Assembly: GCA_009914755.4 (NCBI GenBank)
Contig: CP086569.2
Location: 47,424,001-47,488,000 of the forward strand
Length of the DNA: 64,000 nucleotides
Reading direction: 5' to 3'
Source: the human T2T-CHM13v2.0 reference genome, Homo sapiens
The notes under the pieces are model-generated. The model searched no databases, was not told the origin of the DNA, and saw nothing but the letters and a program-made list of their open reading frames with translations. Of the stretch, positions 2-64,000 are shown piece after piece. How positions within the stretch are numbered: position 1 is the first letter of the stretch; each line of letters starts with the position of its first letter. Made by a program: the position numbers and the translations under genes.

Positions 2-2652
2 GGAAATCACTCGAATAGAATGCAATTTAATAAAATAGGATCAAATGTAATAGAATGGAATGGAAAGGAATCGAAACGGAAGGAATGGAGACAGATGGAA
101 TGGAATGGAACAGAGAGCAATGGTATAGAATGGAATGGAATCATCTGGAATGGAATTGAATGGAATGGAATAATATGAAATGGAATGGAATGGAATGGAA
201 TGGAATGCCCTTGAATTAAATGGACTGGACTCGAACAGAGTGGAATGGAAAGTGTTGAGATAGAATGGAATGGACTCCTTTGGAATGGTCTAGTATGCAA
301 TGCAATCGACTGGCAGGGAATCAAAAGGAATGTAATCGAATGGATTGGACTGGAATGCAATGGACTCGAATAGATTGGAAACGGAATGCAAAGGAATGGA
401 ATGGAATAGTATGGAATGCAATGGAAGGGAATGGAGTGGAATAGACTAGAGTGGAATGGAATGGACTGGAAAGCAATGGACTGGAATGGAACTTTCTTGG
501 ATGGATTGGAATCAAACGGAATGGAATGTAATGCAATCAAATGGCATGGAATAAAATAGAATGAAAGAGAATCAAATGGAATTGAATCGAATGGAATCGA
601 ATGGATTGGAAAGGAATAGAATGGAATGGAATGGAATTGACTCAAATGGAATGGACTAGAATGGAATGGATTCGAATGGAATGGAATGTCATGGAATGGC
701 ATCAAATGGAATGGCATCAAATGGAATGGAATCGAATGCAATGGAATGCTATGGAATGGAATGGAATGCATTGGAATGGAATGTCCTCTAATGGAATGGA
801 TTCGAGTGGAATGGAATTGAATATAATGGAGTCGAATGAAATGGAATTGAAAGGAATGGGATCGAATACAATGGAATATACTGGAATGTAACGTAATGAA
901 CTCGAATGTAATTGACTGGAATGGAATGTACATGAATGGAATGTAATCGAATGGAAAGTAATCCAATGGAATAGAATCTAATGCAATAAAATCGACTCAG
1001 ATAGAGTAGAATGTAATGGAATGGAGTGCAGTGCAATGGAATGGAATGGAATGGAATGCAATGGAATGGAATGGAATGGAATGGAATGGAATGGAATGGA
1101 ATGGGATGGAATGGTATGGAATGGATAGTAATGGACTGGAGTGAAATGGACTGGAAAGGAATGGACTCAAATTGAAAGGGCTCGAAAGGAATGGAGTCAA
1201 ATGGAATGGTCTGGAATGGAATGAACACGAATGTAATGCAATCCAATAGAATGGAATCGAATGGCATGGAATATAAAGAAATGGAATCGAAGAGAATGGA
1301 AACAAATGGAATGGAATTGAATGGAATGGAATTGAATGGAATGTGAACGAATGGAGTGAAATTGTATGCAGTAGAAGAGAATAGAATGGAATGCAAGCGA
1401 AAGGAAAGGAATGGATTGGAATGGAATGGAATTCATTGGAATGGAAGGGAATGTAGTGTAATGGACAGGCCTGGAATAAAGTGGAATGCTACGGTCTCGA
1501 ATGGAATAAAAATGTATGGAATGGAATGCAATGAAACGGAATCGAATGTCATAGAATGTAATGGAATGCAAAAAAATGGAATCCAAAATCATTGAATGGA
1601 AAGGCTGGGTGTCGAAAGGAATTGACTCCAATGGAATGGAATCGAATGGAATGGAAGTGAATAGAATCGAACTAAATCGAATGGAATGGAATTGATAGGA
1701 ACGGAATGGAAAGGAATGCAATGATTTGGCATGGAATGGAATCGAATGGCATCGAATGGAATGGAATGGAATGCAATGGAATGGAATGTATTAGAATGTA
1801 ATGAACTTTAATGGAATGTACTCGAATGGATTCGACTGGAATGGAATGTTCTGGAAGTGAATGGACTCCAATGGAATGGATTCAAAAGGAATGGAATCGT
1901 ACGGAATGGAATCTAATGGAATGGAATTAAATGGAAATGAATCAAATTGAATAGCACGGAATTGAATTGAATGGAATGGAATGCAATGGAATCTAATGAA
2001 ACGGAAAGGAAAGGAATGGAATGGAATGGAATGGACTGGAATGGAAAGGAATCGAAACGAATGGAATGGAATCGAACTGAAGAGACTGGAATGGAATGCA
2101 CTGGAATGGAAGGGAGTGTAATGGAAGGTTCTCGAAAAAAATGGAATCGAATGGAATGGAATTGAATGGAACGGAATAGAGTCGAATGGAATTGAATGGA
2201 ATGGAATGGACTAGAGTGAAATGGAATCGAACCACAAGGAATGGACAGGAATAGAATGGTCTCGAATTGAATGGAATCGTATGGAATGGCATCAAACGGA
2301 ATGGAATGGACAGCCACGGAATGGAATGCACTCGAATGCAATGGAGTCGAAACTAATGGACTGGAATAGAATGGACTCGACTGGTATGGACTCCAATGGA
2401 ATGGAATCGAATGGAAGGGAATCGAACGGAATGGACTCGAAGGGAAAAGACTGCAATGGAAAGGTCTCGAATGGAATGGAAATTAATGGAATGGAATGGA
2501 ATCGAATGAAATGGAGTCAAAAGGAATGGAATCGAATGGCAAGAAATCGAATGTAATGGAATCGCAAGGAATTGATGTGAACGGAACGGAATGGAATGGA
2601 ATCCAAAGGAATGGAATAGAATGGAATGGAATCGAATGGAAAGGACTCGAAT
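2..2652 (+). repeat. HOR unit U1 (2651 bp). Deletion variant A: lacks about 0.9 kb found in canonical units
   Basis: Anchor motif at 2 and next anchor at 2653. After GGACTAGAATGGAATGGATTCGAATGG (~665-680) the sequence jumps straight to AATGGAATGTCATGGAATGGCATCAAATGG, which lies about 900 bp further on in canonical units (compare 13972 to ~14872 in U5). Confidence 0.85.
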
Positions 2653-5600
2653 GGAAATCACTCGAATAGAATGCAATTTAATAAAATAGGATCAAATGTA
2701 ATGGAATGGAATGGAAAGGAATCGAAACGAAAGGAATGGAGACAGATGGAATGGAATGGAACAGAGAGCAATGGTATAGAATGGAATGGAATCATCTGGA
2801 ATGGAATTGAATGGAATGGAATAATATGAAATGGAATGGAATGGAATGGAATGGAATGCCCTTGAATTAAATGGACTGGAATGGAATGGACTCGAACAGA
2901 GTGGAATGGAAAGTGTTGACATAGAATGGAATGGACTCCTTTGGAATGGTGTACTATGCAATGCAATCGACTGGCAGGGAATCAAAAGGAATGTAATCGA
3001 ATGGATTGGACTGGAATGCAATGGACTCGAATAGATTGCAAACGGAATGCAAAGGAATGGAATGGAATAGTATGGAATGGAATGGAAAGGAATGGAGTGG
3101 AATAGACTAGAGTGGAATGGAATGGACTGGAAAGCAATGGACTGGAATGGAACTTTCTTGAATGGACTGGAATCAAACGGAATGGAATGCAATGCAATCA
3201 AAAGGCATGGAATAAAATAGAATGAAAGAGAATCAAATGGAATTGAATCGAATGGAATCGAATGGATTGGAAAGGAACAGAATGGAATGGAATGGAATGG
3301 ACTAGAATGGAATGGATTCGAATGGAAGGCAAAGGAATGGAATCTATTGGAATGGACTGTAATGGAATGGAATGGAAGGGATTGGAATGGACTCGAATGG
3401 AATGGACTGCAATAGAAAGGATTCGAATGGAATGAAAAAGAATTGAATGGAATAGAACAGAATGGAATCAAATCGAATGAAATGGAATGGAATAGAAAGG
3501 AATGGAATGAAATGGAATGGAAAGGATTCGAATGGAATGCAATCGAATGGAATGGAATCGAACGGAATGGAATAAAATGGAAGAAAACTGGCAAGAAAGG
3601 GAATCGATATGAATGGAGTTTTATGGAACGGACTCAAAAGGAATTGAATGTAATAGAATGGAGTGGAGTGGACTCGAATATAATGGACTGGAATGGAATG
3701 AAATCACATGGAATGGGAACGAATGGAATGGAATGGAAAGGAATGGAATCGAATGGAAAGGAATCGAATGGAAGGGAATGAAATTGAATCAACAGGAATG
3801 GAAGGGAATAGAATAGACGGTAATGGAAGGGACTCGAATAGAATGGACACGAATGCTCAAATTGAATGGACTCGAATGGAATGGAAACGAAAGGAATGTC
3901 ATCGAATGGAATTGAATCGATTGGAATGAAATTGCATAGAATGGAGTGGAATCAAATGGAATTGAATCGAAAGGAAAGGAAGCGAATGGACTGAAATGAA
4001 ATGGAATGGAATTGAATGGAAAGTAATGCAATGGAATAGAATGGAACGAAATTTCACGGAATGGAATCAAACTGAATGGAATCAAATCAATGGAATCCAA
4101 TCAAATGGAATGGAGTAGATTGGATTGGATGGGATTGGAATGAAATGTACTGGAAAGGACTCGAATTTCATGAAACGGAATGGAATGAATTGGAACGGAA
4201 TGGACTCGAATGGAATGGAATGTCATAGAATGGCATCAAATGGAATGGCATCAAATGGAATGGAATAGAATGCAATGGAATGCTATGGAATGGAATGGAA
4301 TGTATTGGAATGGAATGTCCTCTAATGGAATGGATTCGAGTGGAATGGAATCGAATATAATGGAGTCGAATGAAATGGAATTGAAAGGAATGGGATCGAA
4401 TACAATGGAATATACTGGAATGTAATGTAATGAACTGGAATGTAATTGACTGGAATGGAATGTACATGAATGGAATGTAATCGAATGGAAAGTAATCCAA
4501 TGGAATAGAATCTAATGCAATAAAATCGACTCAGATAGAGTAGAATGTAATGGAATGGAGTGCAGTGCAATGGAATGGAATGGAATGGAATGCAATGGAA
4601 TGGAATGGAATGGAATGGAATGGAATGGAATGGAATGGAATGGGATGGAATGGTATGGAATGGATAGTAATGGACTGGAGTGAAATGGACTGGAAAGGAA
4701 TGGACTCAAATTGAAAGGGCTCGAAAGGAATGGAGTCAAATGGAATGGTCTGGAATGGAATGAACACGAATGTAATGCAATCCAATAGAATGGAATCGAA
4801 TGGCATGGAATATAAAGAAATGGAATCGAAGAGAATGGAAACAAATGGAATGGAATTGAATGGAATGGAATTGAATGGAATGGGAACGAATGGAGTGAAA
4901 TTGTATGCAGTAGAAGGGAATAGAATGGAATGCAAGCGAAAGGAAAGGAATGGATTGGAATGGAATGGAATTCATTGGAATGGAAGGGAATGTAGTGTAA
5001 TGGACAGGCCTGGAATAAAGTGGAATGCTACGGTCTCGAATGGAATAAAAATGTATGGAATGGAATGCAATCAAACGGAATCGAATGTCATAGAATGTAA
5101 TGGAATGCAAAAAAATGGAATCCAAAATCATTGACTGGAAAGGCTGGGTGTCGAAAGGAATTGACTGCAATGGAATGGAATCAAATGGAATGGAAGTGAA
5201 TAGAATCGAACTAAATCGAATGGAATGGAATTGATAGGAACGGAATGGAAAGGAATGCAATGATTTGGCATGGAATGGAATCGAATGGCATCGAATGGAA
5301 TGGAATGGAATGCAATGGAATGGAATGTATTAGAATGTAATGAACATTAGTGGAATGTACTCGAAAGGATTCGACTGGAATGGAATGTTCTGGAAGTGAA
5401 TGGACTCCAATAGAATGGATTCGAAAGGAATGGAATCGAACGGAATGGATTCTAATGGAATGGAATTAAATGGAAATGAATCAAATTGAATAGCACGGAA
5501 TTGAATTGAATGGAATCGAATGCAATGGAATCTAATGAAACGGAAAGGAAAGAATGGAATGGAATAGAATGGGCTGGAATGGAAAGGAATCGAAACGAAT

Positions 5601-13281: not shown

Positions 13282-16200
13282 GGAAATCACTCGAATAGAA
13301 TGCAATTTAATAAAATAGGATCAAATGTAATGGAATGGAATGGAAAGGAATCGAAACGAAAGGAATGGAGACAGATGGAATGGAATGGAACAGAGAGCAA
13401 TGGTATAGAATGGAATGGAATCATCTGGAATGGAATTGAATGGAATGGAATAATATGAAATGGAATGGAATGGAATGGAATGGAATGCCCTTGAATTAAA
13501 TGGACTGGAATGGAATGGACTCAAACAGAGTGGAATGGAAAGTGTGGAGATAGAATGGAATGAACTCCTTTGGAATGGACTAGTAGGCAATGCAATCGAC
13601 TGGCAGGGAATCAAAAGGAATGTAATCGAATGGATTGGACTGGAATGCAATGGACTCGAATAGATTGGAAACGGAATGCAAAGAATGGAATGGAATAGTA
13701 TGGAATGGAATGGAAAGGAATGGAGTGGAATAGACTAGAGTGGAATGGAATGGACTGGAAAGCAATGGACTGGAATGGAACTTTCTTGAATGGACTGGAA
13801 TCAAACGGAATGGAATGCAATGCAATCAAATGGCATGGAATAAAATAGAATGAAAGAGAATCAAATGGAATTGAATCGAATGGAATCGAATGGATTGGAA
13901 AGGAATAGAATGGAATGGAATGGAATGGACTCAAATGGAATGGACTAGAATGGAATGGATTCGAATGGAAGGCAAAGGAATGGAATCTATTGGAATGGAC
14001 TGTAATGGAATGGAATGGAAGGGATTGGAATGGACTCGAATGGAATGGACTGCAATAGAAAGGATTCGAATGGAATGAAAAAGAATTGAATGGAATAGAA
14101 CAGAATGGAATCAAATCGAATGAAATGGAATGGAATAGAAAGGAATGGAATGAAATGGAATGGAAAGGATTCGAATGGAATGCAATCGAATGGAATGGAA
14201 TCGAACGGAATGGAATAAAATGGAAGAAAACTGGCAAGAAATGGAATCGAAATGAATGGAGTGTTATGGAACGGACTCAAAAGGAATTGAATGTAATAGA
14301 ATGGAGTGGAGTGGACTCGAATATAATGGACTGGAATGGAATGAAATCACATGGAATGGGAACGAATGGAATGGAATGGAAAGGAATGGAATCGAATGGA
14401 AAGGAATCGAATGGAAGGGAATGAAATTGAATCAACAGGAATGGAAGGGAATAGAATAGACGGTAATGGAATGGACTCGAATAGAATGGACACGAATGCT
14501 CAAATTAAATGGACTCGAATGGAATGGAAACGAAAGGAATGTCATCGAATGGAATTGAATCGATTGGAATGAAATCGCATAGAATGGAGTGGAATCAAAT
14601 GGAATTGAATCGAAAGGAAAGGAAGCGAATGGACTGAAATGAAATGGAATGGAATTGAATGGAAAGTAACGCAATGGAATAGAATGGAACGAAATTTCAC
14701 GGAATGGAATCAAACTGAATGGAATCAAATCAATGGAATCAAATCAAATGGAATGGAAAGGAATTGAATGGAGTAGATGGGATTGGATGGGATTGGAATG
14801 AAATGTACTGGAAAGGACTCGAATTTCATGAAACGGAATGGAATGAATTGGAAAGGAATGGACTCGAATGGAATGGAATGTCATGGGATGGCATCAAATG
14901 GAATGGCATCAAATGGAATGGAATCGAATGCAATGGAATGCTATGGAATGGAATGGAATGCATTGGAATGGAATGTCCTCTAATGGAATGGATTCGAGTG
15001 GAATGGAATTGAATATAATGGAGTCGAATGAAATGGAATTGAAAAGAATGGGATCGAATACAATGGAATATACTGGAATGTAACGTAATGAACTCGAATG
15101 TAATTGACTGGAATGGAATGTACATGAATGGAATGTAATCGAATGGAAAGTAATCCAATGGAATAGAATCTAATGCAATAAAATCGACCCAGATAGAGTA
15201 GAATGTAATGGAATGGAGTGTTGTGCAATGGAATGGAATGGAATGGAATGCAATGGAATGGAATGGAATGGAATGGGATGGAATGGTATGGAATGGATAG
15301 TAATGGACTGGAGTGAAATGGACTGGAAAGGAATGGACTCAAATTGAAAGGGCACGAAAGGAATGGAGTCAAATGGAATGGTCTGGAATGGAATGAACAC
15401 GAATGTAATGCAACCCAATAGAATGGAATCGAATGGCATGGAATATAAAGAAATGGAATCGAAGAGAATGGAAACAAATGGAATGGAATTGAATGGAATG
15501 GGAACGAATGGAGTGAAATTGTATGCAGTAGAAGAGAATAGAATGGAATGCAAGCGAAAGGAAAGGAATGGATTGGAATGGAATGGAATTCATTGGAATG
15601 GAAGGGAATGTAGTGTAATGGACAGGCCTGGAATAAAGTGGAATGCTACGGTCTCGAATGGAATAAAAATGTATGGAATGGAATGCAATGAAACGGAATC
15701 GAATGTCATAGAATGTAATGGAATGCAAAAAAATGGAATCCAAAATCATTGACTGGAAAGGCTGGGTGTCGAAAGGAATTGACTCCAATGGAATGGAATC
15801 GAATGGAATGGAAGTGAATAGAATCGAACTAAATCGAATGGAATGGAATTGATAGGAACGGAATGGAAAGGAATGCAATGATTTGGCATGGAATGGAATC
15901 GAATGGCATCGAATGGAATGGAATGGAATGCAATGGAATGGAATGTATTAGAATGGAATGAACTTTAATGGAATGTACTCGAATGGATTCGACTGGAATG
16001 GAATGTTCTGGAAGTGAATGGACTCCAATGGAATGGATTCAAAAGGAATGGAATCGTACGGAATGGAATCTAATGGAATGGAATTAAATGGAAATGAATC
16101 AAATTGAATAGCACGGAATTGAATTGAATGGAATGGAATGCAATGCAATCTAATGAAACGGAAAGGAAAGGAATGGAATGGAATGGAATGGGCTGGAATG

Positions 16201-16824
16201 GAAAGGAATCGAAACGAATGGAATGGAATCGAACTGAAGAGACTGGAATGGAATGCACTGGAATGGAAGGGAGTGTAATGGAAGGTTGTCGAAAAAAATG
16301 GAATCGAATGGAATGGAATTGAATGGAACGGAATAGAGTCGAATGGAATTGAATGGAATGGAATGGACTAGAGTGAAATGGAATCGAACCACAAGGAATG
16401 GACAGGAATAGAATGGTCTCGAATTGAATGGAATCGTATGGAATGGCATCAAACGGAATGGAATGGACAGCCACGGAATGGAATGCACTCGAATGCAATG
16501 AAGTCGAAACTAACGGACTGGAATAGAATGGACTCGACTGGTACGGACTCCAATGGAATGGAATCGAATGGAAGGGAATCGAACGGAAGGGAATCGAACG
16601 GAATGGACTCGAAGGGAAAAGACTGCAATGGAAAGGTCTCGAATGGAATGGAAATTAATGGAATGGAATGGAATCGAATGAAATGGAGTCAAAAGGAATG
16701 GAATCGAATGGCAAGAAATCGAATGTAATGGAATCGCAAGGAATTGATGTGAACGGAACGGAATGGAATGGAATCCAAAGGAATGGAATAGAATGGAATG
16801 GAATCGAATGGAAAGGACTCGAAT
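13282..16824 (+). repeat. HOR unit U5 (3543 bp), used here as the canonical reference unit
   Basis: Anchor spacing. Near-identical to U6 and to the 5' half of U7. Confidence 0.85.
15586..15628. other. The single EcoRI site (GAATTC, 15586-15591) and single HaeIII site (GGCC, 15625-15628) of unit U5. The same pair recurs once in every unit at about +2.30 and +2.34 kb from the anchor
   Basis: Direct reading: GGAATTCATTGG and GGACAGGCCTGG occur once per HOR copy, at ~1468, 5007, 8569, 12086 and onward. I found no other GGCC or GAATTC within the units I checked. Confidence 0.8.
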
Positions 16825-19800
16825 GGAAATCACTCGAATAGAATGCAATTTAATAAAATAGGATCAAATGTAATGGAATGGAATGGAAAGGAATCGAAAC
16901 GAAAGGAATGGAGACAGATGGAATGGAATGGAACAGAGAGCAATGGTATAGAATGGAATGGAATCATCTGGAATGGAATTGAATGGAATGGAATAATATG
17001 AAATGGAATGGAATGGAATGGAATGGAATGCCCTTGAATTAAATGGACTGGAATGGAATGGACTCAAACAGAGTGGAATGGAAAGTGTGGAGATAGAATG
17101 GAATGAACTCCTTTGGAATGGACTAGTAGGCAATGCAATCGACTGGCAGGGAATCAAAAGGAATGTAATCGAATGGATTGGACTGGAATGCAATGGACTC
17201 GAATAGATTGGAAACGGAATGCAAAGAATGGAATGGAATAGTATGGAATGGAATGGAAAGGAATGGAGTGGAATAGACTAGAGTGGAATGGAATGGACTG
17301 GAAAGCAATGGACTGGAATGGAACTTTCTTGAATGGACTGGAATCAAACGGAATGGAATGCAATGCAATCAAATGGCATGGAATAAAATAGAATGAAAGA
17401 GAATCAAATGGAATTGAATCGAATGGAATCGAATGGATTGGAAAGGAATAGAATGGAATGGAATGGAATGGACTCAAATGGAATGGACTAGAATGGAATG
17501 GATTCGAATGGAAGGCAAAGGAATGGAATCTATTGGAATGGACTGTAATGGAATGGAATGGAAGGGATTGGAATGGACTCGAATGGAATGGACTGCAATA
17601 GAAAGGATTCGAATGGAATGAAAAAGAATTGAATGGAATAGAACAGAATGGAATCAAATCGAATGAAATGGAATGGAATAGAAAGGAATGGAATGAAATG
17701 GAATGGAAAGGATTCGAATGGAATGCAATCGAATGGAATGGAATCGAACGGAATGGAATAAAATGGAAGAAAACTGGCAAGAAATGGAATCGAAATGAAT
17801 GGAGTGTTATGGAACGGACTCAAAAGGAATTGAATGTAATAGAATGGAGTGGAGTGGACTCGAATATAATGGACTGGAATGGAATGAAATCACATGGAAT
17901 GGGAACGAATGGAATGGAATGGAAAGGAATGGAATCGAATGGAAAGGAATCGAATGGAAGGGAATGAAATTGAATCAACAGGAATGGAAGGGAATAGAAT
18001 AGACGGTAATGGAATGGACTCGAATAGAATGGACACGAATGCTCAAATTAAATGGACTCGAATGGAATGGAAACGAAAGGAATGTCATCGAATGGAATTG
18101 AATCGATTGGAATGAAATCGCATAGAATGGAGTGGAATCAAATGGAATTGAATCGAAAGGAAAGGAAGCGAATGGACTGAAATGAAATGGAATGGAATTG
18201 AATGGAAAGTAACGCAATGGAATAGAATGGAACGAAATTTCACGGAATGGAATCAAACTGAATGGAATCAAATCAATGGAATCAAATCAAATGGAATGGA
18301 AAGGAATTGAATGGAGTAGATGGGATTGGATGGGATTGGAATGAAATGTACTGGAAAGGACTCGAATTTCATGAAACGGAATGGAATGAATTGGAAAGGA
18401 ATGGACTCGAATGGAATGGAATGTCATGGGATGGCATCAAATGGAATGGCATCAAATGGAATGGAATCGAATGCAATGGAATGCTATGGAATGGAATGGA
18501 ATGCATTGGAATGGAATGTCCTCTAATGGAATGGATTCGAGTGGAATGGAATTGAATATAATGGAGTCGAATGAAATGGAATTGAAAAGAATGGGATCGA
18601 ATACAATGGAATATACTGGAATGTAACGTAATGAACTCGAATGTAATTGACTGGAATGGAATGTACATGAATGGAATGTAATCGAATGGAAAGTAATCCA
18701 ATGGAATAGAATCTAATGCAATAAAATCGACCCAGATAGAGTAGAATGTAATGGAATGGAGTGTTGTGCAATGGAATGGAATGGAATGGAATGCAATGGA
18801 ATGGAATGGAATGGAATGGGATGGAATGGTATGGAATGGATAGTAATGGACTGGAGTTAAATGGACTGGAAAGGAATGGACTCAAATTGAAAGGGCACGA
18901 AAGGAATGGAGTCAAATGGAATGGTCTGGAATGGAATGAACACGAATGTAATGCAACCCAATAGAATGGAATCGAATGGCATGGAATATAAAGAAATGGA
19001 ATCGAAGAGAATGGAAACAAATGGAATGGAATTGAATGGAATGGGAACGAATGGAGTGAAATTGTATGCAGTAGAAGAGAATAGAATGGAATGCAAGCGA
19101 AAGGAAAGGAATGGATTGGAATGGAATGGAATTCATTGGAATGGAAGGGAATGTAGTGTAATGGACAGGCCTGGAATAAAGTGGAATGCTACGGTCTCGA
19201 ATGGAATAAAAATGTATGGAATGGAATGCAATGAAACGGAATCGAATGTCATAGAATGTAATGGAATGCAAAAAAATGGAATCCAAAATCATTGACTGGA
19301 AAGGCTGGGTGTCGAAAGGAATTGACTCCAATGGAATGGAATCGAATGGAATGGAAGTGAATAGAATCGAACTAAATCGAATGGAATGGAATTGATAGGA
19401 ACGGAATGGAAAGGAATGCAATGATTTGGCATGGAATGGAATCGAATGGCATCGAATGGAATGGAATGGAATGCAATGGAATGGAATGTATTAGAATGGA
19501 ATGAACTTTAATGGAATGTACTCGAATGGATTCGACTGGAATGGAATGTTCTGGAAGTGAATGGACTCCAATGGAATGGATTCAAAAGGAATGGAATCGT
19601 ACGGAATGGAATCTAATGGAATGGAATTAAATGGAAATGAATCAAATTGAATAGCACGGAATTGAATTGAATGGAATGGAATGCAATGCAATCTAATGAA
19701 ACGGAAAGGAAAGGAATGGAATGGAATGGAATGGGCTGGAATGGAAAGGAATCGAAACGAATGGAATGGAATCGAACTGAAGAGACTGGAATGGAATGCA

Positions 19801-20367
19801 CTGGAATGGAAGGGAGTGTAATGGAAGGTTCTCGAAAAAAATGGAATCGAATGGAATGGAATTGAATGGAACGGAATAGAGTCGAATGGAATTGAATGGA
19901 ATGGAATGGACTAGAGTGAAATGGAATCGAACCACAAGGAATGGACAGGAATAGAATGGTCTCGAATTGAATGGAATCGTATGGAATGGCATCAAACGGA
20001 ATGGAATGGACAGCCACGGAATGGAATGCACTCGAATGCAATGAAGTCGAAACTAACGGACTGGAATAGAATGGACTCGACTGGTACGGACTCCAATGGA
20101 ATGGAATCGAATGGAAGGGAATCGAACGGAAGGGAATCGAACGGAATGGACTCGAAGGGAAAAGACTGCAATGGAAAGGTCTCGAATGGAATGGAAATTA
20201 ATGGAATGGAATGGAATCGAATGAAATGGAGTCAAAAGGAATGGAATCGAATGGCAAGAAATCGAATGTAATGGAATCGCAAGGAATTGATGTGAACGGA
20301 ACGGAATGGAATGGAATCCAAAGGAATGGAATAGAATGGAATGGAATCGAATGGAAAGGACTCGAAT
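16825..20367 (+). repeat. HOR unit U6 (3543 bp)
   Basis: Anchor spacing. The ORF-track peptides from U5 and U6 are identical over long stretches, which implies DNA identity above 99.5 percent. Confidence 0.85.
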
Positions 20368-23945: not shown

Positions 23946-26900
23946 GGAAATCACTCGAATAGAATGCAATTTAATAAAATAGGATCAAATGTAATGGAAT
24001 GGAATGGAAAGGAATCGAAACGAAAGGAATGGAGACAGATGGAATGGAATGGAACAGAGAGCAATGGTATAGAATGGAATGGAATCATCTGGAATGGAAT
24101 TGAATGGAATGGAATGGAATGCCCTTGAATTAAATGGACTGGAATGGAATGGACTCAAACAGAGTGGAATGGAAAGTGTTGAGATAGAATGGAATGAACT
24201 CCTTTGGAATGGTCTAGTAGGCAATGCAATCGACTGGCAGGGAATCAAAAGGAATGTAATCGAATGGATTGGACTGGAATGCAATGGACTCGAATAGATT
24301 GGAAACGGAATGCAAAGGAATGGAATGGAATAGTATGGAATGGAATGGAAAGGAATGGAGTGGAATAGACTAGAGTGGAATGGAATGGACTGGAAAGCAA
24401 TGGACTGGAATGGAACTTTCTTGAATGGACTGGAATCAAACGGAATGGAATGCAATGCAATCAAATGGCATGGAATAAAATAGAATGAAAGAGAATCAAA
24501 TGGAATTGAATCGAATGGAATCGAATGGATTGGAAAGGAACAGAACGGAATGGAATGGAATTGACTCAAATGGAATGGACTAGAATGGAATGGATTCGAA
24601 TGGAAGACAAAGGAATGGAATCTGTTGGAATGGACTGTAATGGAATGGAATGGAAGGGATTGGAATGGACTCGAATGGAATGGACTGCAATAGAAAGGAT
24701 TCGAATGGAATGAAAAAGAATTGAATGGAATAGAACAGAATGGAATCAAATCGAATGAAATGGAATGGAATAGAAAGGAATGGAATGAAATGGAATGAAA
24801 AGGATTCCAATGGAATGCAGTCGAATGGAATGGAATCGAACGGAATGGAATAAAATGGAAGAAAACTGGCAATAAATGGAATCGAAATGAATGGAGTGTT
24901 ATGGAACGGACTCAAAAGGAATTGAATGTAATAGAATGGAGTGGAGTGGACTCGAATATAATGGACTGGAATGGAATGAAATCACATGGAATGGGAACGA
25001 ATGGAATGGAATGGAAAGGAATGGAATCGAATGGAAAGGAATCGAATGGAGGGAATGAAATTGAATCAACAGGAATGGAAGGGAATAGAATAGACGGTAA
25101 TGGAATGGACTCGAATAGAATGGACACGAATGCTCAAATTGAATGGACTCGAATGGAATGGAAACGAAAGGAATGTCATCGAATGGAATTGAATCGATTG
25201 GAATGAAATCGCATAGAATGGAGTGGAATCAAATGGAATTGAATCGAAAGGAAAGGAAGCGAATGGACTGAAATGAAATGGAATGGAATTGAATGGAAAG
25301 TAATGCAATGGAATAGAATGGAACGAAATTTCACGGAATGGAATCAAACTGAATGGAATCAAATCAATGGAATCAAATCAAATGGAATGGAAAGGAATTG
25401 AATGGAGTAGATTGGATTGGATGGGATTGGAATGAAATGTACTGGAAAGGACTCGAATTTCATGAAACGGAATGGAATGAATTGGAACGGAATGGACTCG
25501 AATGGAATGGAATGTCATGGGATGGCATCAAATGGAATGGCATCAAATGGAATGGAATCGAATGCAATGGAATGCTATGGAATGGAATGGAATGCATTGG
25601 AATGGAATGTCCTCTAATGGAATGGATTCGAGTGGAATGGAATTGAATATAATGGAGTCGAATGAAATGGAATTGAAAAGAATGGGATCGAATACAATGG
25701 AATATACTGGAATGTAACGTAATGAACTCGAATGTAATTGACTGGAATGGAATGTACATGAATGGAATGTAATCGAATGGAAAGTAATCCAATGGAATAG
25801 AATCTAATGCAATAAAATCGACTCAGATAGAGTAGAATGTAATGGAATGGAGTGTTGTGCAATGGAATGGAATGGAATGGAATGCAATGGAATGGAATGG
25901 AATGGAATGGGATGGAATGGTATGGAATGGATAGTAATGGACTGGAGTGAAATGGACTGGAAAGGAATGGACTCAAATTGAAAGGGCACGAAAGGAATGG
26001 AGTCAAATGGAATGGTCTGGAATGGAATGAACACGAATGTAATGCAACCCAATAGAATGGAATCGAATGGCATGGAATATAAAGAAATGGAATCGAAGAG
26101 AATGGAAACAAATGGAATGGAATTGAATGGAATGTGAACGAATGGAGTGAAATTGTATGCAGTAGAAGAGAATAGAATGGAATGCAAGCGAAAGGAAAGG
26201 AATGGATTGGAATGGAATGGAATTCATTGGAATGGAAGGGAATGTAGTGTAATGGACAGGCCTGGAATAAAGTGGAATGCTACGGTCTCGAATGGAATAA
26301 AAATGTATGGAATGGAATGCAATGAAACGGAATCGAATGTCATAGAATGTAATGGAATGCAAAAAAATGGAATCCAAAATCATTGACTGGAAAGGCTGGG
26401 TGTCGAAAGGAATTGACTCCAATGGAATGGAATCGAATGGAATGGAAGTGAATAGAATCGAACTAAATCGAATGGAATGGAATTGATAGGAACGGAATGG
26501 AAAGGAATGCAATGATTTGGCATGGAATGGAATCGAATGGCATCGAATGGAATGGAATGGAATGCAATGGAATGGAATGTATTAGAATGGAATGAACTTT
26601 AATGGAATGTACTCGAATGGATTCGACTGGAATGGAATGTTCTGGAAGTGAATGGACTCCAATGGAATGGATTCAAAAGGAATGGAATCGTACGGAATGG
26701 AATCTAATGGAATGGAATTAAATGGAAATGAATCAAATTGAATAGCACGGAATTGAATTGAATGGAATGGAATGCAAGGGAATCTAATGAAACGGAAAGG
26801 AAAGGAATGGAATGGAATGGAATGGGCTGGAATGGAAAGGAATCGAAACGAATGGAATGGAATCGAACTGAAGAGACTGGAATGGAATGCACTGGAATGG

Positions 26901-27458
26901 AAGGGAGTGTAATGGAAGGTTCTCGAAAAAAATGGAATCGAATGGAATGCAATTGAATGGAACGGAGTAGAGCCGAATGCAATTGAATGGAATGGAATGG
27001 ACTAGAGTGAAATGGAATCGAACCACAAGGAATGGACAGGAATAGAATGGTCTCGAATTGAATGGAATCGTATGGAATGGCATCAAACGGAATGGAATGG
27101 ACAGCCACGGAATGGAATGCACTCGAATGCAATGGAGTCGAATCTAATGGACTGGAATAGAATGGACTCGACTGGTACGGACTCCAATGGAATGGAATCG
27201 AATGGAAGGGAATCGAACGGAAGGGAATCGAATGGAATGGACTCGAAGGGAAAAGACTGTAATGGAAAGGTCTCGAATGGAATGGAAATTAATGGAATGG
27301 AATGGAATCGAATGAAATGGAGGCAAAAGGAATGGAATCGAATGGCAAGAAATCGAATGTAATGGAATCGCAAGGAATTGATGTGAACGGAACGGAATGG
27401 AATGGAATCCAAAGGAATGGAATAGAATGGAATGGAATCGAATGGAAAGGACTCGAAT
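23946..27458 (+). repeat. HOR unit U8 (3513 bp), same subtype as U4
   Basis: Anchor spacing. Shares the 15-bp AATAATATGAAATGG deletion (~24105-24125) and the GTCTAGTAGGCAATGC variant with U4. The ORF-track peptides of U4 and U8 are nearly identical. Confidence 0.85.
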
Positions 27459-30400
27459 GGAAATCACTCGAATAGAATGCAATTTAATAAAATAGGATCA
27501 AATGTAATGGAATGGAATGGAAAGGAATCGAAACGAAAGGAATGGAGACAGATGGAATGGAATGGAACAGAGAGCAATGGTATAGAACGGAATGGAATCA
27601 TCTGGAATGGAATTGAATGGAATGGAATAATATGAAATGGAAAGGAATGAAATGGAATGCCCTTGAATTAAATGGACTACAATGGGAATGGACTCGAACA
27701 GAGTGGAATGGAAAGTGTTGAAATAGAATGGAATTGACTCGTTTGGAATGGTCTAGTATGCAATGCAATCGACTGGCAGGGAATCAAAAGGAATGTAATC
27801 GAGTGGATTGGACTGGAATGCAATGGACTCGAATAGATTGGAAACGGAATGCAAAGGAATGGAATGGAATAGTATGGAATGGAATGGAAAGGAATGGAGT
27901 GGAATAGACTAGAGTGGAATGGAATGGACTCGAAAGCAATGGACTGGAATGGAACTTTCTTGAATGGACTGGAACCAAACGGAATGGAATGCAATGCAAT
28001 CAAATGGCATGGAATAAGATAGAATGAAAGAGAATCAAATGGAATTGAATCGAATGGAATCGAATGGATTGGAAAGGAATAGAATGGAATGGAATGGAAT
28101 TGACTCAAATGGAATGGACTAGAATGGAATGGATTCGAATGGAAGGCAAAGGAATGGAATCTATCGGAATGCACTGTAATGGAATGGAATGGAAGGGATT
28201 GGAATGGATTCGAATGGAATGGACTGCAATAGAAAGGATTCGAATGGAATGAAAAAGAATTGAATGGAATAGAACAGAATGGAATCAAATCGAATGAAAT
28301 GGAATGGAATAGAAAGGAATGGAATGAAATGGAATGGAAAGGATTCGAATGGAATGCAATCGAATGGAATGGAATCGAACGGAATGGAATAAAATGGAAG
28401 AAAACTGGCAAGAAATGGAATCGAAATGAATGGAATGTTTTGGAACGGACTCAAAAGGAATTGAATGTAATAGAATGGAGTGGAGTGGACTCGAATATAA
28501 TGGACTGGAATGGAATGAAATCACATGGAATGGGAACGAATGGAATGGAATGGAAAGGAATGGAATCGAATGGAAAGCAATCGAATGGAAGGGAATGAAA
28601 TTGAATCAACAGGAATGGAAGGGAATAGAATAGACGGTAATGGAATGGACTCGAATAGAATGGACACGAATGCTCAAATTGAATGGACTCGAATGGAATG
28701 GAAACGAAAGGAATGTCATCGAATGGAATTGAATCGATTGGAATGAAATCGCATAGAATGGAGTGGAATCAAATGGAATTGAATCGAAAGAAAAGGAAGC
28801 GAATGGACTGAAATGAAATGGAATGGAATTGAATGGAAAGTAACGCAATGGAATACAATGGAACGAAATTTCACGGAATGGAATCAAACTGAATGGAATC
28901 AAATCAATGGAATCTAATCAAATGGAATGGAAAGGAATTGAATGGAGTAGATTGGATTGGATGGGATTGGAATGAAATGTACTGGAAAGGACTCGAATTT
29001 CATGAAACGGAATGGAATGAATTGGAACGGAATGGACTCGAATGGAATGGAATGTCATGGAATGGTATCAAATGGAATGCCATCAAATGGAATGGAATCG
29101 AATGCAATGGAATGTTATGGAATGGAATGGAATGCATTGGAATGGAGTGTCCTCTAATGGAATGGATTCGAGTGGAATGGAATCGAATATAATGGAGTCG
29201 AATGAAATGGAATTGAAAGGAATGGGATCGAATAGAATGGAATATACTGGAATGTAATGTAATGAACTCGAATGTAATTGACTGGAATGGAATGTACATG
29301 AATGGAATGTAATCGAATGGAAAGTAATCCAATGGAATAGAATCTAATGCAATAAAACCGACTCAGATAGAGTAGAATGTAATGGAATGGAGTGCAGTGC
29401 AATGAAATGGAATGGAATTGAATGCAATGGAATGGAATGGAATGGAATGGAATGGAATGGAATGGAATGGAATTGGATGGAATGGTATGGAATGGATAGT
29501 AATGGACTGGAGTGAAATGGACTGGAAAGGAATGGACTCAAATTGAAAGGTCTCGAAAGGAATGGAGTCAAATGGAATGGTCTGGAATGGAATGAACACG
29601 AATGTAATGCAATCCAATAGAATGGAATCGAATGGCATGGAATATAAAGAAATGGAATCGAAGAGAATGGAAACAAATGGAATGGAATTGAATGGAATGG
29701 AATTGAATGGAATGGGAACGAATGGAGTGAAATTGTATGCAGTAGAAGGGAATAGAATGGAATGCAAGCGAAAGGAAAGGAATGGATTGGAATGGAATGG
29801 AATTCATTGGAATGGAAGGGAATGTAGTGTAATGGACAGGCCTGGAATAAAGTGGAATGCTACGGTCTCGAATGGAATAAAAATGTATGGAATGGAATGC
29901 AATGAAACGGAATCGAATGTCATAGAATGTAATGGAATGCAAAAAAATGGAATCCAAAATCATTGACTGGAAAGGCTGGGTGTCGAAAGGAATTGACTCC
30001 AATGGAATGGAATCGAATGGAATGGAAGTGAATAGAATCGAACTAAATCGAATGGAATGGAATTGATAGGAACGGAATGGAAAGGAATGCAATGATTTGG
30101 CATGGAATGGAATCGAATGGCATCGAATGGAATGGAATGGAATGCAATGGAATGGAATGTATTAGAATGGAATGAACTTTAATGGAATGTACTCGAATGG
30201 ATTCGACTGGAATGGAATGTTCTGGAAGTGAATGGACTCCAATGGAATGGATTCAAAAGGAATGGAATCGTACGGAATGGAATCTAATGGAATGGAATTA
30301 AATGGAAATGAATCAAATTGAATAGCACGGAATTGAATTGAATGGAATGGAATGCAATGGAATCTAATGAAACGGAAAGGAAAGGAATGGAATGGAATGG

Positions 30401-31043: not shown

Positions 31044-33714
31044 GGAAATCACTCGAATAGAATGCAATTTAATAAAATAGGATCAAATGTAATAGAATGG
31101 AATGGAAAGGAATCGAAACGGAAGGAATGGAGACAGATGGAATGGAATGGAACAGAGAGCAATGGTATAGAATGGAATGGAATCATCTGGAATGGAATTG
31201 AATGGAATGGAATAATATGAAATGGAATGGAATGGAATGGAATGGAATGCCCTTGAATTAAATGGACTGGACTCGAACAGAGTGGAATGGAAAGTGTTGA
31301 GATAGATTGGAATGGACTCCTTTGGAATGGTCTAGTATGCAATGCAATCGACTGGCAGGGAATCAAAAGGAATGTAATCGAATGGATTGGACTGGAATGC
31401 AATGGACTCGAATAGATTGGAAACGGAATGCAAAGGAATGGAATGGAATAGTATGGAATGCAATGGAAGGGAATGGAGTGGAATAGACTAGAGTGGAATG
31501 GAATGGACTGGAAAGCAATGGACTGGAATGGAACTTTCTTGGATGGATGGGAATCAAACGGAATGGAATGCAATGCAATCAAATGGCATGGAATAAAATA
31601 GAATGAAAGAGAATCAAATGGAATTGAATCGAATGGAATCGAATGGATTGGAAAGGAATAGAATGGAATGGAATGGAATTGACTCAAATGGAATGGACTA
31701 GAATGGAATGGATTCGAATGGAATGGAATGTCATGGAATGGCATCAAATGGAATGGCATCAAATGGAATGGAATCGAATGCAATGGAATGCTATGGAATG
31801 GAATGGAATGCATTGGAATGGAATGTCCTCTAATGGAATGGATTCGAGTGGAATGGAATTGAATATAATGGAGTCGAATGAAATGGAATTGAAAGGAATG
31901 GGATCGAATACAATGTAATATACTGGAATGTAACGTAATGAACTCGAATGTAATTGACTGGAATGGAATGTACATGAATGGAATGTAATCGAATGGAAAG
32001 TAATCCAATGGAATAGAATCTAATGCAATAAAATCGACTCAGATAGAGTAGAATGTAATGGAATGGAGTGCAGTGCAATGGAATGGAATGGAATGGAATG
32101 CAATGGAATGGAATGGAATGGAATGGAATGGAATGGAATGGAATGGAATGGGATGGAATGGTATGGAATGGATAGTAATGGACTGGAGTGAAATGGACTG
32201 GAAAGGAATGGACTCAAATTGAAAGGGCTCGAAAGGAATGGAGTCAAATGGAATGGTCTGGAATGGAATGAACACGAATGTAATGCAATCCAATAGAATG
32301 GAATCGAATGGCATGGAATATAAAGAAATGGAATCGAAGAGAATGGAAACAAATGGAATGGAATTGAATGGAATGGAATTGAATGGAATGTGAACGAATG
32401 GAGTGAAATTGTATGCAGTAGAAGAGAATAGAATGGAATGCAAGCGAAAGGAAAGGAATGGATTGGAATGGAATGGAATTCATTGGAATGGAAGGGAATG
32501 TAGTGTAATGGACAGGCCTGGAATAAAGTGGAATGCTACGGTCTCGAATGGAATAAAAATGTATGGAATGGAATGCAATGAAACGGAATCGAATGTCATA
32601 GAATGTAATGGAATGCAAAAAAATGGAATCCAAAATCATTGACTGGAAAGGCTGGGTGTCGAAAGGAATTGACTCCAATGGAATGGAATCGAATGGAATG
32701 GAAGTGAATAGAATCGAACTAAATCGTATGGAATGGAATTGATAGGAACGGAATGGAAAGGAATGCAATGATTTGGCATGGAATGGAATCGAATGGCATC
32801 GAATGGAATGGAATGGAATGCAATGGAATGGAATGTATTAGAATGGAATGAACTTTAATGGAATGTACTCGAATGGATTCGACTGGAATGGAATGTTCTG
32901 GAAGTGAATGGACTCCAATGGAATGGATTCAAAAGGAATGGAATCGTACGGAATGGAATCTAATGGAATGGAATTAAATGGAAATGAATCAAATTGAATA
33001 GCACGGAATTGAATTGAATGGAATGGAATGCAATGGAATCTAATGAAACGGAAAGGAAAGGAATGGAATGGAATGGAATGGGCTGGAATGGAAAGGAATC
33101 GAAACGAATGGAATGGAATCGAACTGAAGAGACTGGAATGGAATGCACTGGAATGGAAGGGAGTGTAATGGAAGGTTCTCGAAAAAAATGGAATCGAATG
33201 GAATGCAATTGAATGGAACGGAGTAGAGCCGAATGCAATTGAATGGAATGGAATGGACTAGAGTGAAATGGAATCGAACCACAAGGAATGGACAGGAATA
33301 GAATGGTCTCGAATTGAATGGAATCGTATGGAATGGCATCAAACGGAATGGAATGGACAGCCACGGAATGGAATGCACTCGAATGCAATGGAGTCGAATC
33401 TAATGGACAGGAATAGAATGGACGCGACTGGTACGGACTCCAATGGAATGGAATCGAATGGAAGGGAATCGAACGGAAGGGAATCGAATGGAATGGACTC
33501 GAAGGGAAAAGACTGTAATGGAAAGGTCTCGAATGGAATGGAAATTAATGGAATGGAATGGAATCGAATGAAATGGAGGCAAAAGGAATGGAATCGAATG
33601 GCAAGAAATCGAATGTAATGGAATCGCAAGGAATTGATGTGAACGGAACGGAATGGAATGGAATCCAAAGGAATGGAATAGAATGGAATGGAATCGAATG
33701 GAAAGGACTCGAAT
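31044..33714 (+). repeat. HOR unit U10 (2671 bp). Deletion variant A, same junction as U1
   Basis: Anchor spacing. GGATTCGAATGGAATGGAATGTCATGGAATGGCATC at ~31711-31745 reproduces the U1 junction. The 319-aa artefactual minus-strand ORFs 7..966 and 31049..32008 are almost identical. Confidence 0.85.
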
Positions 33715-61348: not shown

Positions 61349-64000
61349 GGAAATCACTCGAATAGAATGAAATTTAATAAAATAGGATCAAATGTAATAG
61401 AATGGAATGGAAAGGAATCGAAACGGAACGAATGGAGACAGATGGAATGGAATGGAACAGAGAGCAATGGTATAGAATGGAATGGAATCATCTGGAATGG
61501 AATTGAATGGAATGGAATAATATGAAATGGAATGGAATGGAATGGAATGGAATGGAATGCCCTTGAATTAAATGGACTGGACTCGAACAGAGTGGAATGG
61601 AAAGTGTTGAGATAGAATGGAATGGACTCCTTTGGAATGGTGTACTATGCAATGCAATCGACTGGCAGGGAATCAAAAGGAATGTAATCGAATGGATTGG
61701 ACTGGAATGCAATGGACTCGAATAGATTGGAAACGGAATGCAAAGGAATGGAATGGAATAGTATGGAATGCAATGGAAGGGAATGGAGTGGAATAGACTA
61801 GAGTGGAATGGAATGGACTGGAAAGCAATGGAGTGGAATGGAACTTTCTTGGATGGACTGGAATCAAACGGAATGGAATGCAATGCAATCAAATGGCATG
61901 GAATAAAATAGAATGAAAGAGAATCAAATGGAATTGAATCGAATGGAATCGAATGGATTGGAAAGGAATAGAATGGAATGGAATGGAATTGACTCAAATG
62001 GAATGGACTAGAATGGAATGGATTCGAATGGAAGGCAAAGGAATGGAATCTATTGGAATGGACTGTAATGGAATGGAATGGAAGGGATTGGAATGGACTC
62101 GAATGGAATGGACTGCAATAGAAAGGATTCGAATGGAATGAAAAAGAATTGAATGGAATAGAACAGAATGGAATCAAATCGAATGGAATGGAATGGAATA
62201 GAAAGGAATGGAATGAAATGGAATGGAAAGGATTCGAATGGAATGCAATCGAATGGAATGGAATCGAACGGAATGGAATAAAATGGAAGAAAACTGGCAA
62301 GAAATGGAATCGAAATGAATGGAGTGTTATGGAATGGACTCAAAAGGAATTGAATGTAATAGAATGGAGTGGAGTGGACTCGAATATAATGGACTGGAAT
62401 GGAATGAAATCACATGGAATGGGAACGAATGGAATGGAATGGAAAGGAATGGAATCGAATGGAAAGGAATCGAATGGAAGGGAATGAAATTGAATCAACA
62501 GGAATGGGAGGGAATAGAATAGACTGTAATGGAATGGACTCGAATAGAATGGACACGAATGCTCAAATTAAATTGACTCGAATGGAATGGAAACGAAAGG
62601 AATGTCATCGAATGGAATTGAATCGATTGGAATGAAATTGCATAGAATGGAGTGGAATCAAATGGAATTGAATCGAAAGGAAAGGAAGCGAATGGACTGA
62701 AATGAAATGGAATGGAATTGAATGGAAAGTAATGCAATGGAATAGAATGGAACGAAATTTCACGGAATGGAATCAAACTGAATGGAATCAAATCAATGGA
62801 ATCAAATCAAATGGAATTGAAAGGAATTGAATGGAGTAGATGGGATTGGATGGGATTGGAATGAAATGTACTGGAAAGGACTCGAATTTCATGAAACGGA
62901 ATGGAATGAATTGGAAAGGAATGGACTCGAATGGAATGGAATGTCATGGAATGGCATCAAATGGAATGGCATCAAATGGAATGGAATCGAATGCAATGGA
63001 ATGCTGTGGAATGGAATGGAATGCATTGGAATGGAATGTCCTCTAATGGAATGGATTCGAGTGGAATGGAATTGAATATAATGGAGTCGAATGAAATGGA
63101 ATTGAAAGGAATGGGATCGAATACAATGGAATATACTGGAATGTAACGTAATGAACTCGAATGTAATTGACTGGAATGGAATGTACATGAATGGAATGTA
63201 ATCGAATGGAAAGTAGTCCAATGGAATAGAATCTAATGCAATAAAATCGACTCAGATAGAGTAGAATGTAATGGAATGGAGTGCAGTGCAATGGAATGGA
63301 ATGGAATGGAATGGAATGGAATGGAATGGGATGGAATGGTATGGAATGGATAGTAATGGACTGGAGTGAAATGGACTGGAAAGGAATGGACTCAAATTGA
63401 AAGGTCTCGAAAGGAATGGAGTCAAATGGAATGGTCTGGAATGGAATGAACACGAATGTAATGCAATCCAATAGAATGGAATCGAATGGCATGGAATATA
63501 AAGAAATGGAATCGAAGAGAATGGAAACAAATGGAATGAAATTGAATGGAATGGAATTGAATGGAATGTGAACGAATGGAGTGAAATTGTATGCAGTAGA
63601 AGAGAATAGAATGGAATGCAAGCGAAAGGAAAGGAATGGATTGGAATGGAATGGAATTCATTGGAATGGAAGGGAATGTAGTGTAATGGACAGGCCTGGA
63701 ATAAAGTGGAATGCTACGGTCTCGAATGGAATAAAAATGTATGGAATGGAATGCAATGAAACGGAATCGAATGTCATAGAATGTAATGGAATGCAAAAAA
63801 ATGGAATCCAAAATCATTGAATGGAAAGGCTGGGTGTCGAAAGGAATTGACTCCAATGGAATGGAATCGAATGGAATGGAAGTGAATAGAATCGAACTAA
63901 ATCGAATGGAATGGAATTGATAGGAACGGAATGGAAAGGATTGCAATGATTTGGCATGGAATGGAATCGAATGGCATCGAATGGAATGGAATGGAATGCA
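61349..64000 (+). repeat. HOR unit U19, partial (2652 bp to the window end), U1/U3-like subtype
   Basis: Anchor with variant GAATAGAATGAAATTTAATAAAATAG. GACTGGACTCGAACAGAGTGG variant. Truncated by the window end. Confidence 0.8.

What the first reader, a model, noticed from the sequence alone, without database searches (positions are those of the whole stretch)
2..2652. Deletion variant A: ~0.9 kb missing from HOR unit U1, junction at a TCGAATGGAA direct repeat
U1 is 2651 bp, whereas canonical units are about 3.55 kb. The breakpoint at ~671-690 joins GGATTCGAATGGAA directly to TGGAATGTCATGG. In canonical units those two sequences are about 900 bp apart (13972 and ~14872 in U5), and both are followed by the same TCGAATGGAA(TGG) motif. 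This is the signature of recombination or replication slippage between short direct repeats. The deletion is a multiple of 5 bp, so the pentamer phase is preserved.
Basis: seen in the sequence. Interest (0 to 1): 0.5.

Follow-up and report, generated by a model that had tools for sequence, protein, structure and literature searches.

The report
Short deletion variant of DYZ1 satellite unit
One repeat unit of the human Y-chromosome DYZ1 satellite has lost 903 bp between two copies of a 10-base motif; this is an ordinary satellite structural variant that occurs twice in the window.

Summary
The window is a human DYZ1 (HSat3A6, Yq12) array. Seven published DYZ1 primers and one HaeIII site each occur once per unit.

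- **Unit length:** U1 (2-2652) is 2651 bp. Fifteen of the 18 complete units are 3513-3585 bp.
- **Deletion:** Against full-length units, U1 shows one large gap of 902-903 bp. The other gaps are 5-30 bp indels that also vary among full-length units.
- **Junction:** It lies in TCGAATGGAA (672-681). Full-length units carry this motif at both ends of the missing segment, as a 10 bp exact repeat or 19 bp with one mismatch. No bases are inserted.
The deletion is not a multiple of 5. The lost segment holds three pentamer frame shifts (net +3), so the GGAAT frame still reads through the junction.
- **Chance:** Random breakpoint pairs show 10 bp or more of microhomology only 1.3% of the time. However, about 11,000 such repeat pairs exist per unit, so this site is not special.
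- **Second copy:** U10 (31044-33714) has the identical junction and is U1's nearest relative around it. Both are nested among full-length units, which points to one derived deletion that was later copied.
- **Independent data:** None of 58 DYZ1 copies in contaminant or metagenome contigs carries the junction.
- **Literature:** Short DYZ1 units are already reported in aggregate.

Low interest.

The parts
2..2652 (.). U1, a short DYZ1 unit of 2651 bp carrying the 903-bp internal deletion
   Evidence: Marker spacing. Single 902-903 bp gap against U3-U6.
672..681 (.). Junction motif TCGAATGGAA, the single retained copy of the direct repeat. The extended homology GGAATGGATTCGAATGGAA is 663-681.
   Evidence: Three-way comparison of U1 with the left and right breakpoints of U3. 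All units are listed.
31044..33714 (.). U10, a second unit (2671 bp) with the identical deletion junction. Its 3' third is U8-like, so it is a recombinant.
31714..31723 (.). Junction motif TCGAATGGAA in U10
   Evidence: The 40-mer spanning the junction occurs only at 655 and 31697.
13971..14873 (.). The 903-bp segment in full-length unit U5 that is missing from U1 and U10. It is bounded by TCGAATGGAA at 13961-13970 and 14864-14873.
62034..62936 (.). The same 903-bp segment in U19, a full-length unit close to the deleted haplotype. Its bounding repeats are at 62024-62033 and 62927-62936.

Best explanation
U1 is a structural variant of the human Y-chromosome DYZ1 (HSat3A6) 3.56-kb repeat unit. 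A full-length unit of the U3/U13/U19 type lost 903 bp.

The two ends of the lost segment carry the same short direct repeat. It is TCGAATGGAA, exact over 10 bp, or GGAATGGA[T/C]TCGAATGGAA over 19 bp with one mismatch. The two copies were paired and the DNA between them was removed, leaving one copy.

The most likely routes are template slippage during replication, or repair of a break by annealing of the two repeat copies (microhomology-mediated end joining or single-strand annealing). An out-of-register exchange at the same short homology would leave the same product.

The deletion happened once. The short unit was then copied to at least two places 31 kb apart by the unequal exchange and duplication that continually reshuffles this array. 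One copy, U10, later acquired a U8-like 3' end.

Shown: the anatomy, the repeat, the shared haplotype and the nesting among full-length units. Inferred: the molecular route and that the variant is real in the source DNA.
For: Identity of the array:
- All seven DYZ1 primers of PMC3925983 Table 5 hit once per unit, and there is one HaeIII site per unit.

Anatomy of the deletion:
- There is a single 902-903 bp gap.
- The repeat is present at both edges in all 17 units that keep the segment, and once in U1 and U10, with no inserted bases.
- U1 keeps the left-copy T just upstream of the motif, so the switch lies inside the 10-mer.

Chance:
- P(10 bp or more of microhomology) = 0.013.
- P(19 bp or more with at most one mismatch) = 0.0035.

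Single origin and polarity:
- U1 and U10 are mutual nearest neighbours on both flanks of the junction, with 6 differences in 1766 bp.
- In the 3' third, U10 is 3/885 from U8 but 13/885 from U1.
- The short units share derived variants with the full-length units U3, U13 and U19, so the short form is nested within the long forms.

Independent support for the mechanism:
- The separate 875-bp deletion in U12 also lies in a 26-bp direct repeat with one mismatch.
Against: - No read data were available, so an assembly error is not formally excluded.
- The junction was absent from 58 canonical DYZ1 copies in public contaminant and metagenome contigs, and from a direct junction scan. I found no independent sample carrying it. 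Most of those contigs are short and may represent collapsed consensus copies, so this is weak negative evidence.
- About 11,000 direct-repeat pairs of 10 bp or more exist per unit. The homology explains how the deletion formed, but not why it formed here.
- No reciprocal 4.45-kb duplication unit is present in the window. That neither supports nor excludes unequal exchange.
Confidence: 0.85

Rival explanations
1. Assembly artefact: the assembler collapsed or mis-joined reads inside the satellite, and the 903 bp are present in the real chromosome.
For: Yq12 is one of the hardest regions to assemble. No reads were available here, and no independent contig carries the junction.
Against: - The identical junction occurs in two units that differ from each other by 19 substitutions and two indels and have different neighbours. 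The same mis-join would have to happen twice.
- The two breakpoint contexts are only about 67% identical over 100-200 bp. That is far too low for an overlap-based mis-join.
- I would expect collapse in tandem arrays to remove whole units rather than a quarter of one unit at a 10-bp motif (my own reasoning).
Confidence: 0.05
2. Two independent, recurrent deletions occurred at the same repeat pair (a hotspot) in U1 and U10, rather than one event that was then copied.
For: The same repeat pair exists in every full-length unit, so recurrence is mechanistically possible. U1 and U10 differ strongly in their 3' thirds.
Against: - U1 and U10 are each other's closest units on both sides of the junction (3/677 and 3/1089 differences) and share every informative variant from alignment column 50 to 2276.
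- About 11,000 alternative repeat pairs exist per unit, so exact recurrence is improbable without a specific hotspot.
Confidence: 0.07
3. The short form is ancestral, and the canonical 3.55-kb unit gained a 903-bp insertion or duplication.
For: A direct repeat flanking the extra segment could in principle be a duplication footprint.
Against: - The short units share derived variants with only a subset of the long units (U3, U13, U19), so they are nested inside long-unit diversity.
- The 903-bp segment is not a copy of adjacent sequence. At offset 903 the best 200-bp window is 71.5% identical, against a background median of 70%.
- All 58 independent DYZ1 copies in public contigs have the canonical left breakpoint, and the classical unit is 3564 bp.
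Confidence: 0.01
4. Blunt end joining of two random breaks, with the 10-bp repeat at the junction a coincidence of the low-complexity sequence.
For: The satellite is pentamer-based, so some microhomology is common. Random breakpoint pairs have 3 bp or more in 14% of cases.
Against: Homology of 10 bp or more has P = 0.013, and 19 bp or more with at most one mismatch has P = 0.0035. The unrelated U12 deletion also sits in a 26-bp repeat with one mismatch, which is rarer still by the distribution (P between 0.00009 and 0.0006).
Confidence: 0.02

Closest known systems
DYZ1 / HSat3A6 3.56-kb repeat of human Yq12 (Nakahori 3564-bp HaeIII unit; T2T-Y and Hallast et al. assemblies)
   Same: The sequence is derived from the GGAAT pentamer. 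Units are about 3.55 kb with one HaeIII site. All seven published DYZ1 primer sites are present once per unit. Unit-length heterogeneity is already reported: a range of 1,165-3,608 bp, with 95% of units over 3 kb.
   Different: U1 and U10 lack 903 bp of the unit, including the sites of primers DYZ1 C, E and F. I found no paper in the searchable library that describes this junction.
Structural variants of satellite higher-order repeats, such as alpha-satellite HOR variants that differ by whole monomers and arise by unequal crossing-over (own knowledge)
   Same: A minority unit-length variant is embedded in an otherwise homogeneous array, has been propagated to several positions, and shows mosaic units indicating exchange.
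   Different: There is no monomer-scale paralogy to support an out-of-register crossover. Homology at the breakpoints is only 10-19 bp, and identity at offset 903 is at background level. The footprint is therefore microhomology or short-homology type, not classical non-allelic homologous recombination.
2.7-kbp repeat of the Yq11/Yq12 transition zone (Hallast et al.)
   Same: Similar length of about 2.7 kb, and largely DYZ1-like sequence.
   Different: That repeat is 23% DYZ18-derived and forms its own array. U1 aligns to DYZ1 over its full length at 99.4% identity with one gap, and sits among canonical units.

Membership tests
DYZ1 / HSat3A6 satellite | Built from diverged GGAAT/ATTCC pentamers | tested here: met
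   Sequence read directly. TRF reports periods of 10 and 15 over the whole window. Autocorrelation peaks at multiples of 5.
DYZ1 / HSat3A6 satellite | Unit of about 3.56 kb with a single HaeIII (GGCC) site | tested here: met
   There are 19 GGCC sites, one per unit. Spacing is 3513-3580 bp except for the two intervals (2676 and 2704 bp) that span the short units U10 and U12. The published modal lengths are 3,564 and 3,569 bp.
DYZ1 / HSat3A6 satellite | Published DYZ1-specific primer sites | tested here: met
   Primers DYZ1 A-G of PMC3925983 Table 5 hit 10-19 times in the window at 0-2 mismatches, never more than once per unit. Two further primers recalled from memory give a 154-bp amplicon in every unit, but I could not confirm them in the paper library.
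DYZ1 / HSat3A6 satellite | Located in Yq12, alternating with DYZ2 blocks | not testable with these tools
   The window contains only DYZ1, and no human reference genome was available.
Deletion mediated by a short direct repeat (slippage, microhomology-mediated end joining or single-strand annealing footprint) | One contiguous gap relative to the parental form | tested here: met
Deletion mediated by a short direct repeat (slippage, microhomology-mediated end joining or single-strand annealing footprint) | Direct repeat at both edges in the parent, one copy in the product, and no filler bases | tested here: met
Deletion mediated by a short direct repeat (slippage, microhomology-mediated end joining or single-strand annealing footprint) | Homology longer than expected for random breakpoints | tested here: met
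   P = 0.013 for 10 bp exact and 0.0035 for 19 bp with one mismatch.
Non-allelic homologous recombination or unequal crossover between extended paralogous sub-repeats | Hundreds of bp of high identity between the two breakpoint regions | tested here: not met
   Identity at offset 903 is 67-68% over 100-200 bp around the breakpoint. The best 200-bp window anywhere in the unit is 71.5%, against a background median of 70%.
2.7-kbp Yq11/Yq12 transition repeat | About 23% of the unit derived from DYZ18 | tested here: not met
   All of U1 aligns to canonical DYZ1 units at 98.9-99.4% identity. The definition of the 2.7-kbp repeat is.

The most novel reading that the evidence does not exclude
The two unrelated deletions in this window (903 bp in U1 and U10, about 875 bp in U12) both remove roughly a quarter of a unit at short imperfect direct repeats. 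If units of about 2.65-2.7 kb turned out to be a recurrent, preferred size class across Y haplogroups, that would point to a constrained deletion process in Yq12 heterochromatin, for example a preferred spacing for repair or slippage. The junction k-mers could then serve as lineage markers for reconstructing how DYZ1 blocks were amplified.
Probability: 0.08. Interest if true: 0.3.

Novelty: new member of a known kind. Interest (0 to 1): 0.1.

Why it matters
It matters little by itself. It is a clean, base-resolved example of how unit-length variants arise and spread in the DYZ1 satellite.

Two practical points follow:
- **Marker use:** The junction 27-mer GGATTCGAATGGAATGGAATGTCATGG occurs only at the two junctions in this window and was absent from all three public contig collections scanned or screened. 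It could be used to trace block duplications in Yq12 or to compare Y haplogroups.
- **PCR assays:** Published DYZ1 assays that use primers C, E or F cannot detect these short units, because those sites lie at or within the deleted segment.

Tried and rejected
- **Sub-periodicity of about 0.9 kb** as a substrate for unequal crossover: rejected. Identity at offsets 860-920 is at background level.
- **2.7-kbp transition repeat:** rejected.
- **Independent occurrence of the junction:** an exact scan of viral contigs and metagenome contigs found nothing. A scan with the shared 29-mer left of the breakpoint found 9 'bacterial' genome contigs and 51 metagenome stretches. They hold 58 canonical DYZ1 copies and no junction. 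Six further hits have different flanks and appear to be other GGAAT-type (HSat3-like) satellite sequence.
- **Primers recalled from memory** (TCCACTTTATTCCAGGCCTGTCC and TTGAATGGAATGGGAACGAATGG) match once per unit. I could not verify them in the paper library, so the identification rests on the primers of PMC3925983 instead.
- **Tool limits:** TRF cannot see the 3.55-kb period because its longest period is 500. DNA alignment is capped at 3000 bases, so I did the unit alignments with my own scripts.
- **Literature:** searches for a described 2.6-2.7 kb DYZ1 deletion unit found nothing specific.

Full report
**What the window is**

The whole 64 kb is GGAAT-type satellite with uniform composition: GC 0.38-0.40 and a strong G-over-C skew. 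A 39-base boundary marker recurs 19 times and defines 18 complete units. Fifteen are 3513-3585 bp. Three are short: U1 (2-2652, 2651 bp), U10 (31044-33714, 2671 bp) and U12 (37275-39958, 2684 bp).

The seven primers published for the 3564-bp DYZ1 HaeIII unit (PMC3925983, Table 5) hit 10-19 times in the window, never more than once per unit. GGCC occurs exactly once per unit. The array is therefore human DYZ1 (HSat3A6) of Yq12, read on the GGAAT strand. T2T-Y and Hallast et al. describe DYZ1 as a nested repeat of about 3.5-3.6 kb derived from the pentamer.

**Checking the observation**

I aligned U1 globally to U3, U4, U5 and U6. Each alignment gives 98.9-99.4% identity and one large gap of 902-903 bp at U1 position about 672-679. 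The only other gaps are 1-30 bp indels that also vary among full-length units. The refutation condition of many small dispersed gaps is not met.

The junction reads GGATTCGAATGGAA (668-681) followed directly by TGGAATGTCATGG (682-694). In U5 the corresponding sequences are 903 bp apart.

**Junction anatomy**

In every one of the 17 units that retain the segment:
- the left edge reads ...GGAATGGATTCGAATGGAA|GGCAAAGG...
- the right edge reads ...GGAATGGACTCGAATGGAA|TGGAATGTCATGG...

The shared motif is 10 bp exact, or 19 bp with a single T/C mismatch. U1 carries the left-copy T just upstream of the motif and right-copy sequence immediately after it. The switch therefore lies inside the 10-mer, and no bases are added.

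**The 'multiple of 5' claim is wrong**

Relative to the units that keep the segment, the missing length is 903 bp in 11, 902 bp in 3 and 888 bp in 3. None of these is a multiple of 5.

The deleted segment contains three shifts of the GGAAT frame (phase 0 to 1 to 4 to 3, net +3). U1 has one uninterrupted frame from 453 to 923. The phase is continuous across the junction because the join is at a homologous motif, not because the length is a multiple of 5.

**Is the microhomology more than chance?**

I scored all breakpoint pairs with spacings of 300-3300 bp in a canonical unit.
- Only 1.3% lie in an exact direct repeat of 10 bp or more.
- Only 0.35% lie in a repeat of 19 bp or more with at most one mismatch.

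A homology-guided event is therefore favoured over blunt joining. However, about 11,000 distinct repeat pairs of 10 bp or more exist per unit, so this pair is not exceptional. It explains how the deletion formed, not why it formed here.

There is no extended homology. Identity between the two breakpoint regions is 67-68% over 100-200 bp. No offset near 0.9 kb stands out anywhere in the unit: at offset 903 the best 200-bp window is 71.5% identical, against a background median of 70%. Classical unequal crossover between paralogous sub-repeats is not supported.

**A second copy, one origin, and polarity**

U10 has exactly the same junction. The 40-mer spanning it occurs only at 655 and 31697.

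In the 5' two-thirds of the unit, U1 and U10 are mutual nearest neighbours, with 6 differences in 1766 bp. This holds separately on each flank, at 3/677 and 3/1089. They share every informative variant between alignment columns 50 and 2276.

Those variants are shared with only some full-length units (U3, U13, U19). The short form is therefore nested within the long forms and is the derived state.

In the 3' third, U10 switches to a U8-like haplotype, 3/885 from U8 against 13/885 from U1. This indicates later exchange or conversion.

The simplest history is one deletion, then copying of the short unit within the array, then local exchange. T2T-Y reports that Yq12 evolves by unequal exchange and iterative duplication, and pedigree data show ongoing conversion-like changes there.

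**Independent data**

The junction 27-mer was not found in viral contigs or metagenome contigs.

The 29-mer just left of the breakpoint found 9 contigs labelled as bacterial genomes and 51 metagenome stretches. This is human contamination of the kind T2T-Y described. All 58 DYZ1 copies among them continue with the canonical GGCAAA... sequence. Six other hits have different flanks and appear to be other GGAAT-type (HSat3-like) satellite sequence.

I therefore have no independent sample with the variant. Most of these contigs are short and may represent collapsed consensus copies, so the negative result is weak.

**Literature**

Hallast et al. report DYZ1 units ranging from 1,165 to 3,608 bp, with 95% over 3 kb. 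Short units are thus known in aggregate. I found no description of this junction.

Their '2.7-kbp repeat' of the Yq11/Yq12 transition zone is a different thing. It is 23% DYZ18-derived, whereas U1 is DYZ1 along its whole length.

**Mechanism and rivals**

Best explanation, confidence about 0.85: a real deletion mediated by a short direct repeat, arising through replication slippage or annealing-based break repair. An out-of-register exchange at the same motif would be indistinguishable from sequence. The deletion occurred once and was then propagated.

An assembly artefact is unlikely, at about 0.05. The same join occurs in two units that differ at 19 substitutions and two indels and have different neighbours. 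The joined contexts are also far too dissimilar for an overlap mis-join. Only reads can exclude it.

Recurrent independent deletion, an ancestral short form, and chance microhomology are each disfavoured by the haplotype and probability results above.

**Verdict**

This is an ordinary structural variant of a well-known satellite and is of low interest. Its junction k-mer could be a convenient marker for tracing DYZ1 block history.

Noticed in passing
window 37275-39958 (U12); junction 39796-39821: A second, unrelated short unit of 2684 bp lacks about 875 bp (860-880 bp depending on the reference unit) from a different part of the unit. Its junction lies in the direct repeat AATGGAATGGAATCGAATG[G/A]AATGGA (26 bp, one mismatch), with the switch in the last 6 bp. 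Apart from the deletion it is U2/U16-like.
   Followed up: partly
window 31044-33714 (U10) compared with 23946-27458 (U8): U10 is a mosaic. Its 5' two-thirds are U1-like, and its 3' third (alignment columns 2731-3469) carries eight variants otherwise seen almost only in U8. This suggests crossover or gene conversion between units two positions apart.
   Followed up: partly
window 13282-20367 (U5, U6); 27459-31043 (U9) and 33715-37274 (U11): U5 and U6 differ at only 2 positions, which suggests a very recent tandem duplication. U9 and U11, which flank the short U10, differ at 14 positions and form their own divergent subtype.
   Followed up: no
window 672-694 and the primer sites listed: Published DYZ1 primers C and F (TCGAATGGAAGGCAAAGG) straddle the left breakpoint, and primer E lies inside the deleted segment. 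U1 and U10 are therefore invisible to those PCR assays. Primer B has an exact site in only 10 of 19 units because of a G/A polymorphism.
   Followed up: partly
L001-L009 (for example BMRF01000076.1 Actinomadura cremea, and BMTN01000073.1, BMUF01000085.1 and BMTH01000073.1, all Streptomyces JCM strains): Contigs deposited as bacterial or archaeal genomes consist of human DYZ1 satellite, which is male human DNA contamination. Several come from the same culture-collection sequencing series.
   Followed up: partly
L011, L015, L018, L026 (BNJT01001888.1, 55 kb); L019 (BNJU01001848.1, 52 kb); L030, L033, L060 (BNJU01004413.1, 55 kb): Long metagenome contigs of 52-55 kb appear to be human DYZ1-like arrays. 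The HaeIII fragments in the fetched parts of BNJT01001888.1 are 3539-3562 bp, with no short units. L018 and L019 show a spacing of 3483-3485 bp and lack the boundary marker, so they may be a diverged DYZ1 subtype.
   Followed up: no
whole window: Most indels among units are multiples of 5 (5, 10, 15, 30, 35 bp), but a few are 1, 6 or 11 bp. Autocorrelation and TRF favour a 15-bp sub-period over 5 bp, with 69% matches at period 15.
   Followed up: no
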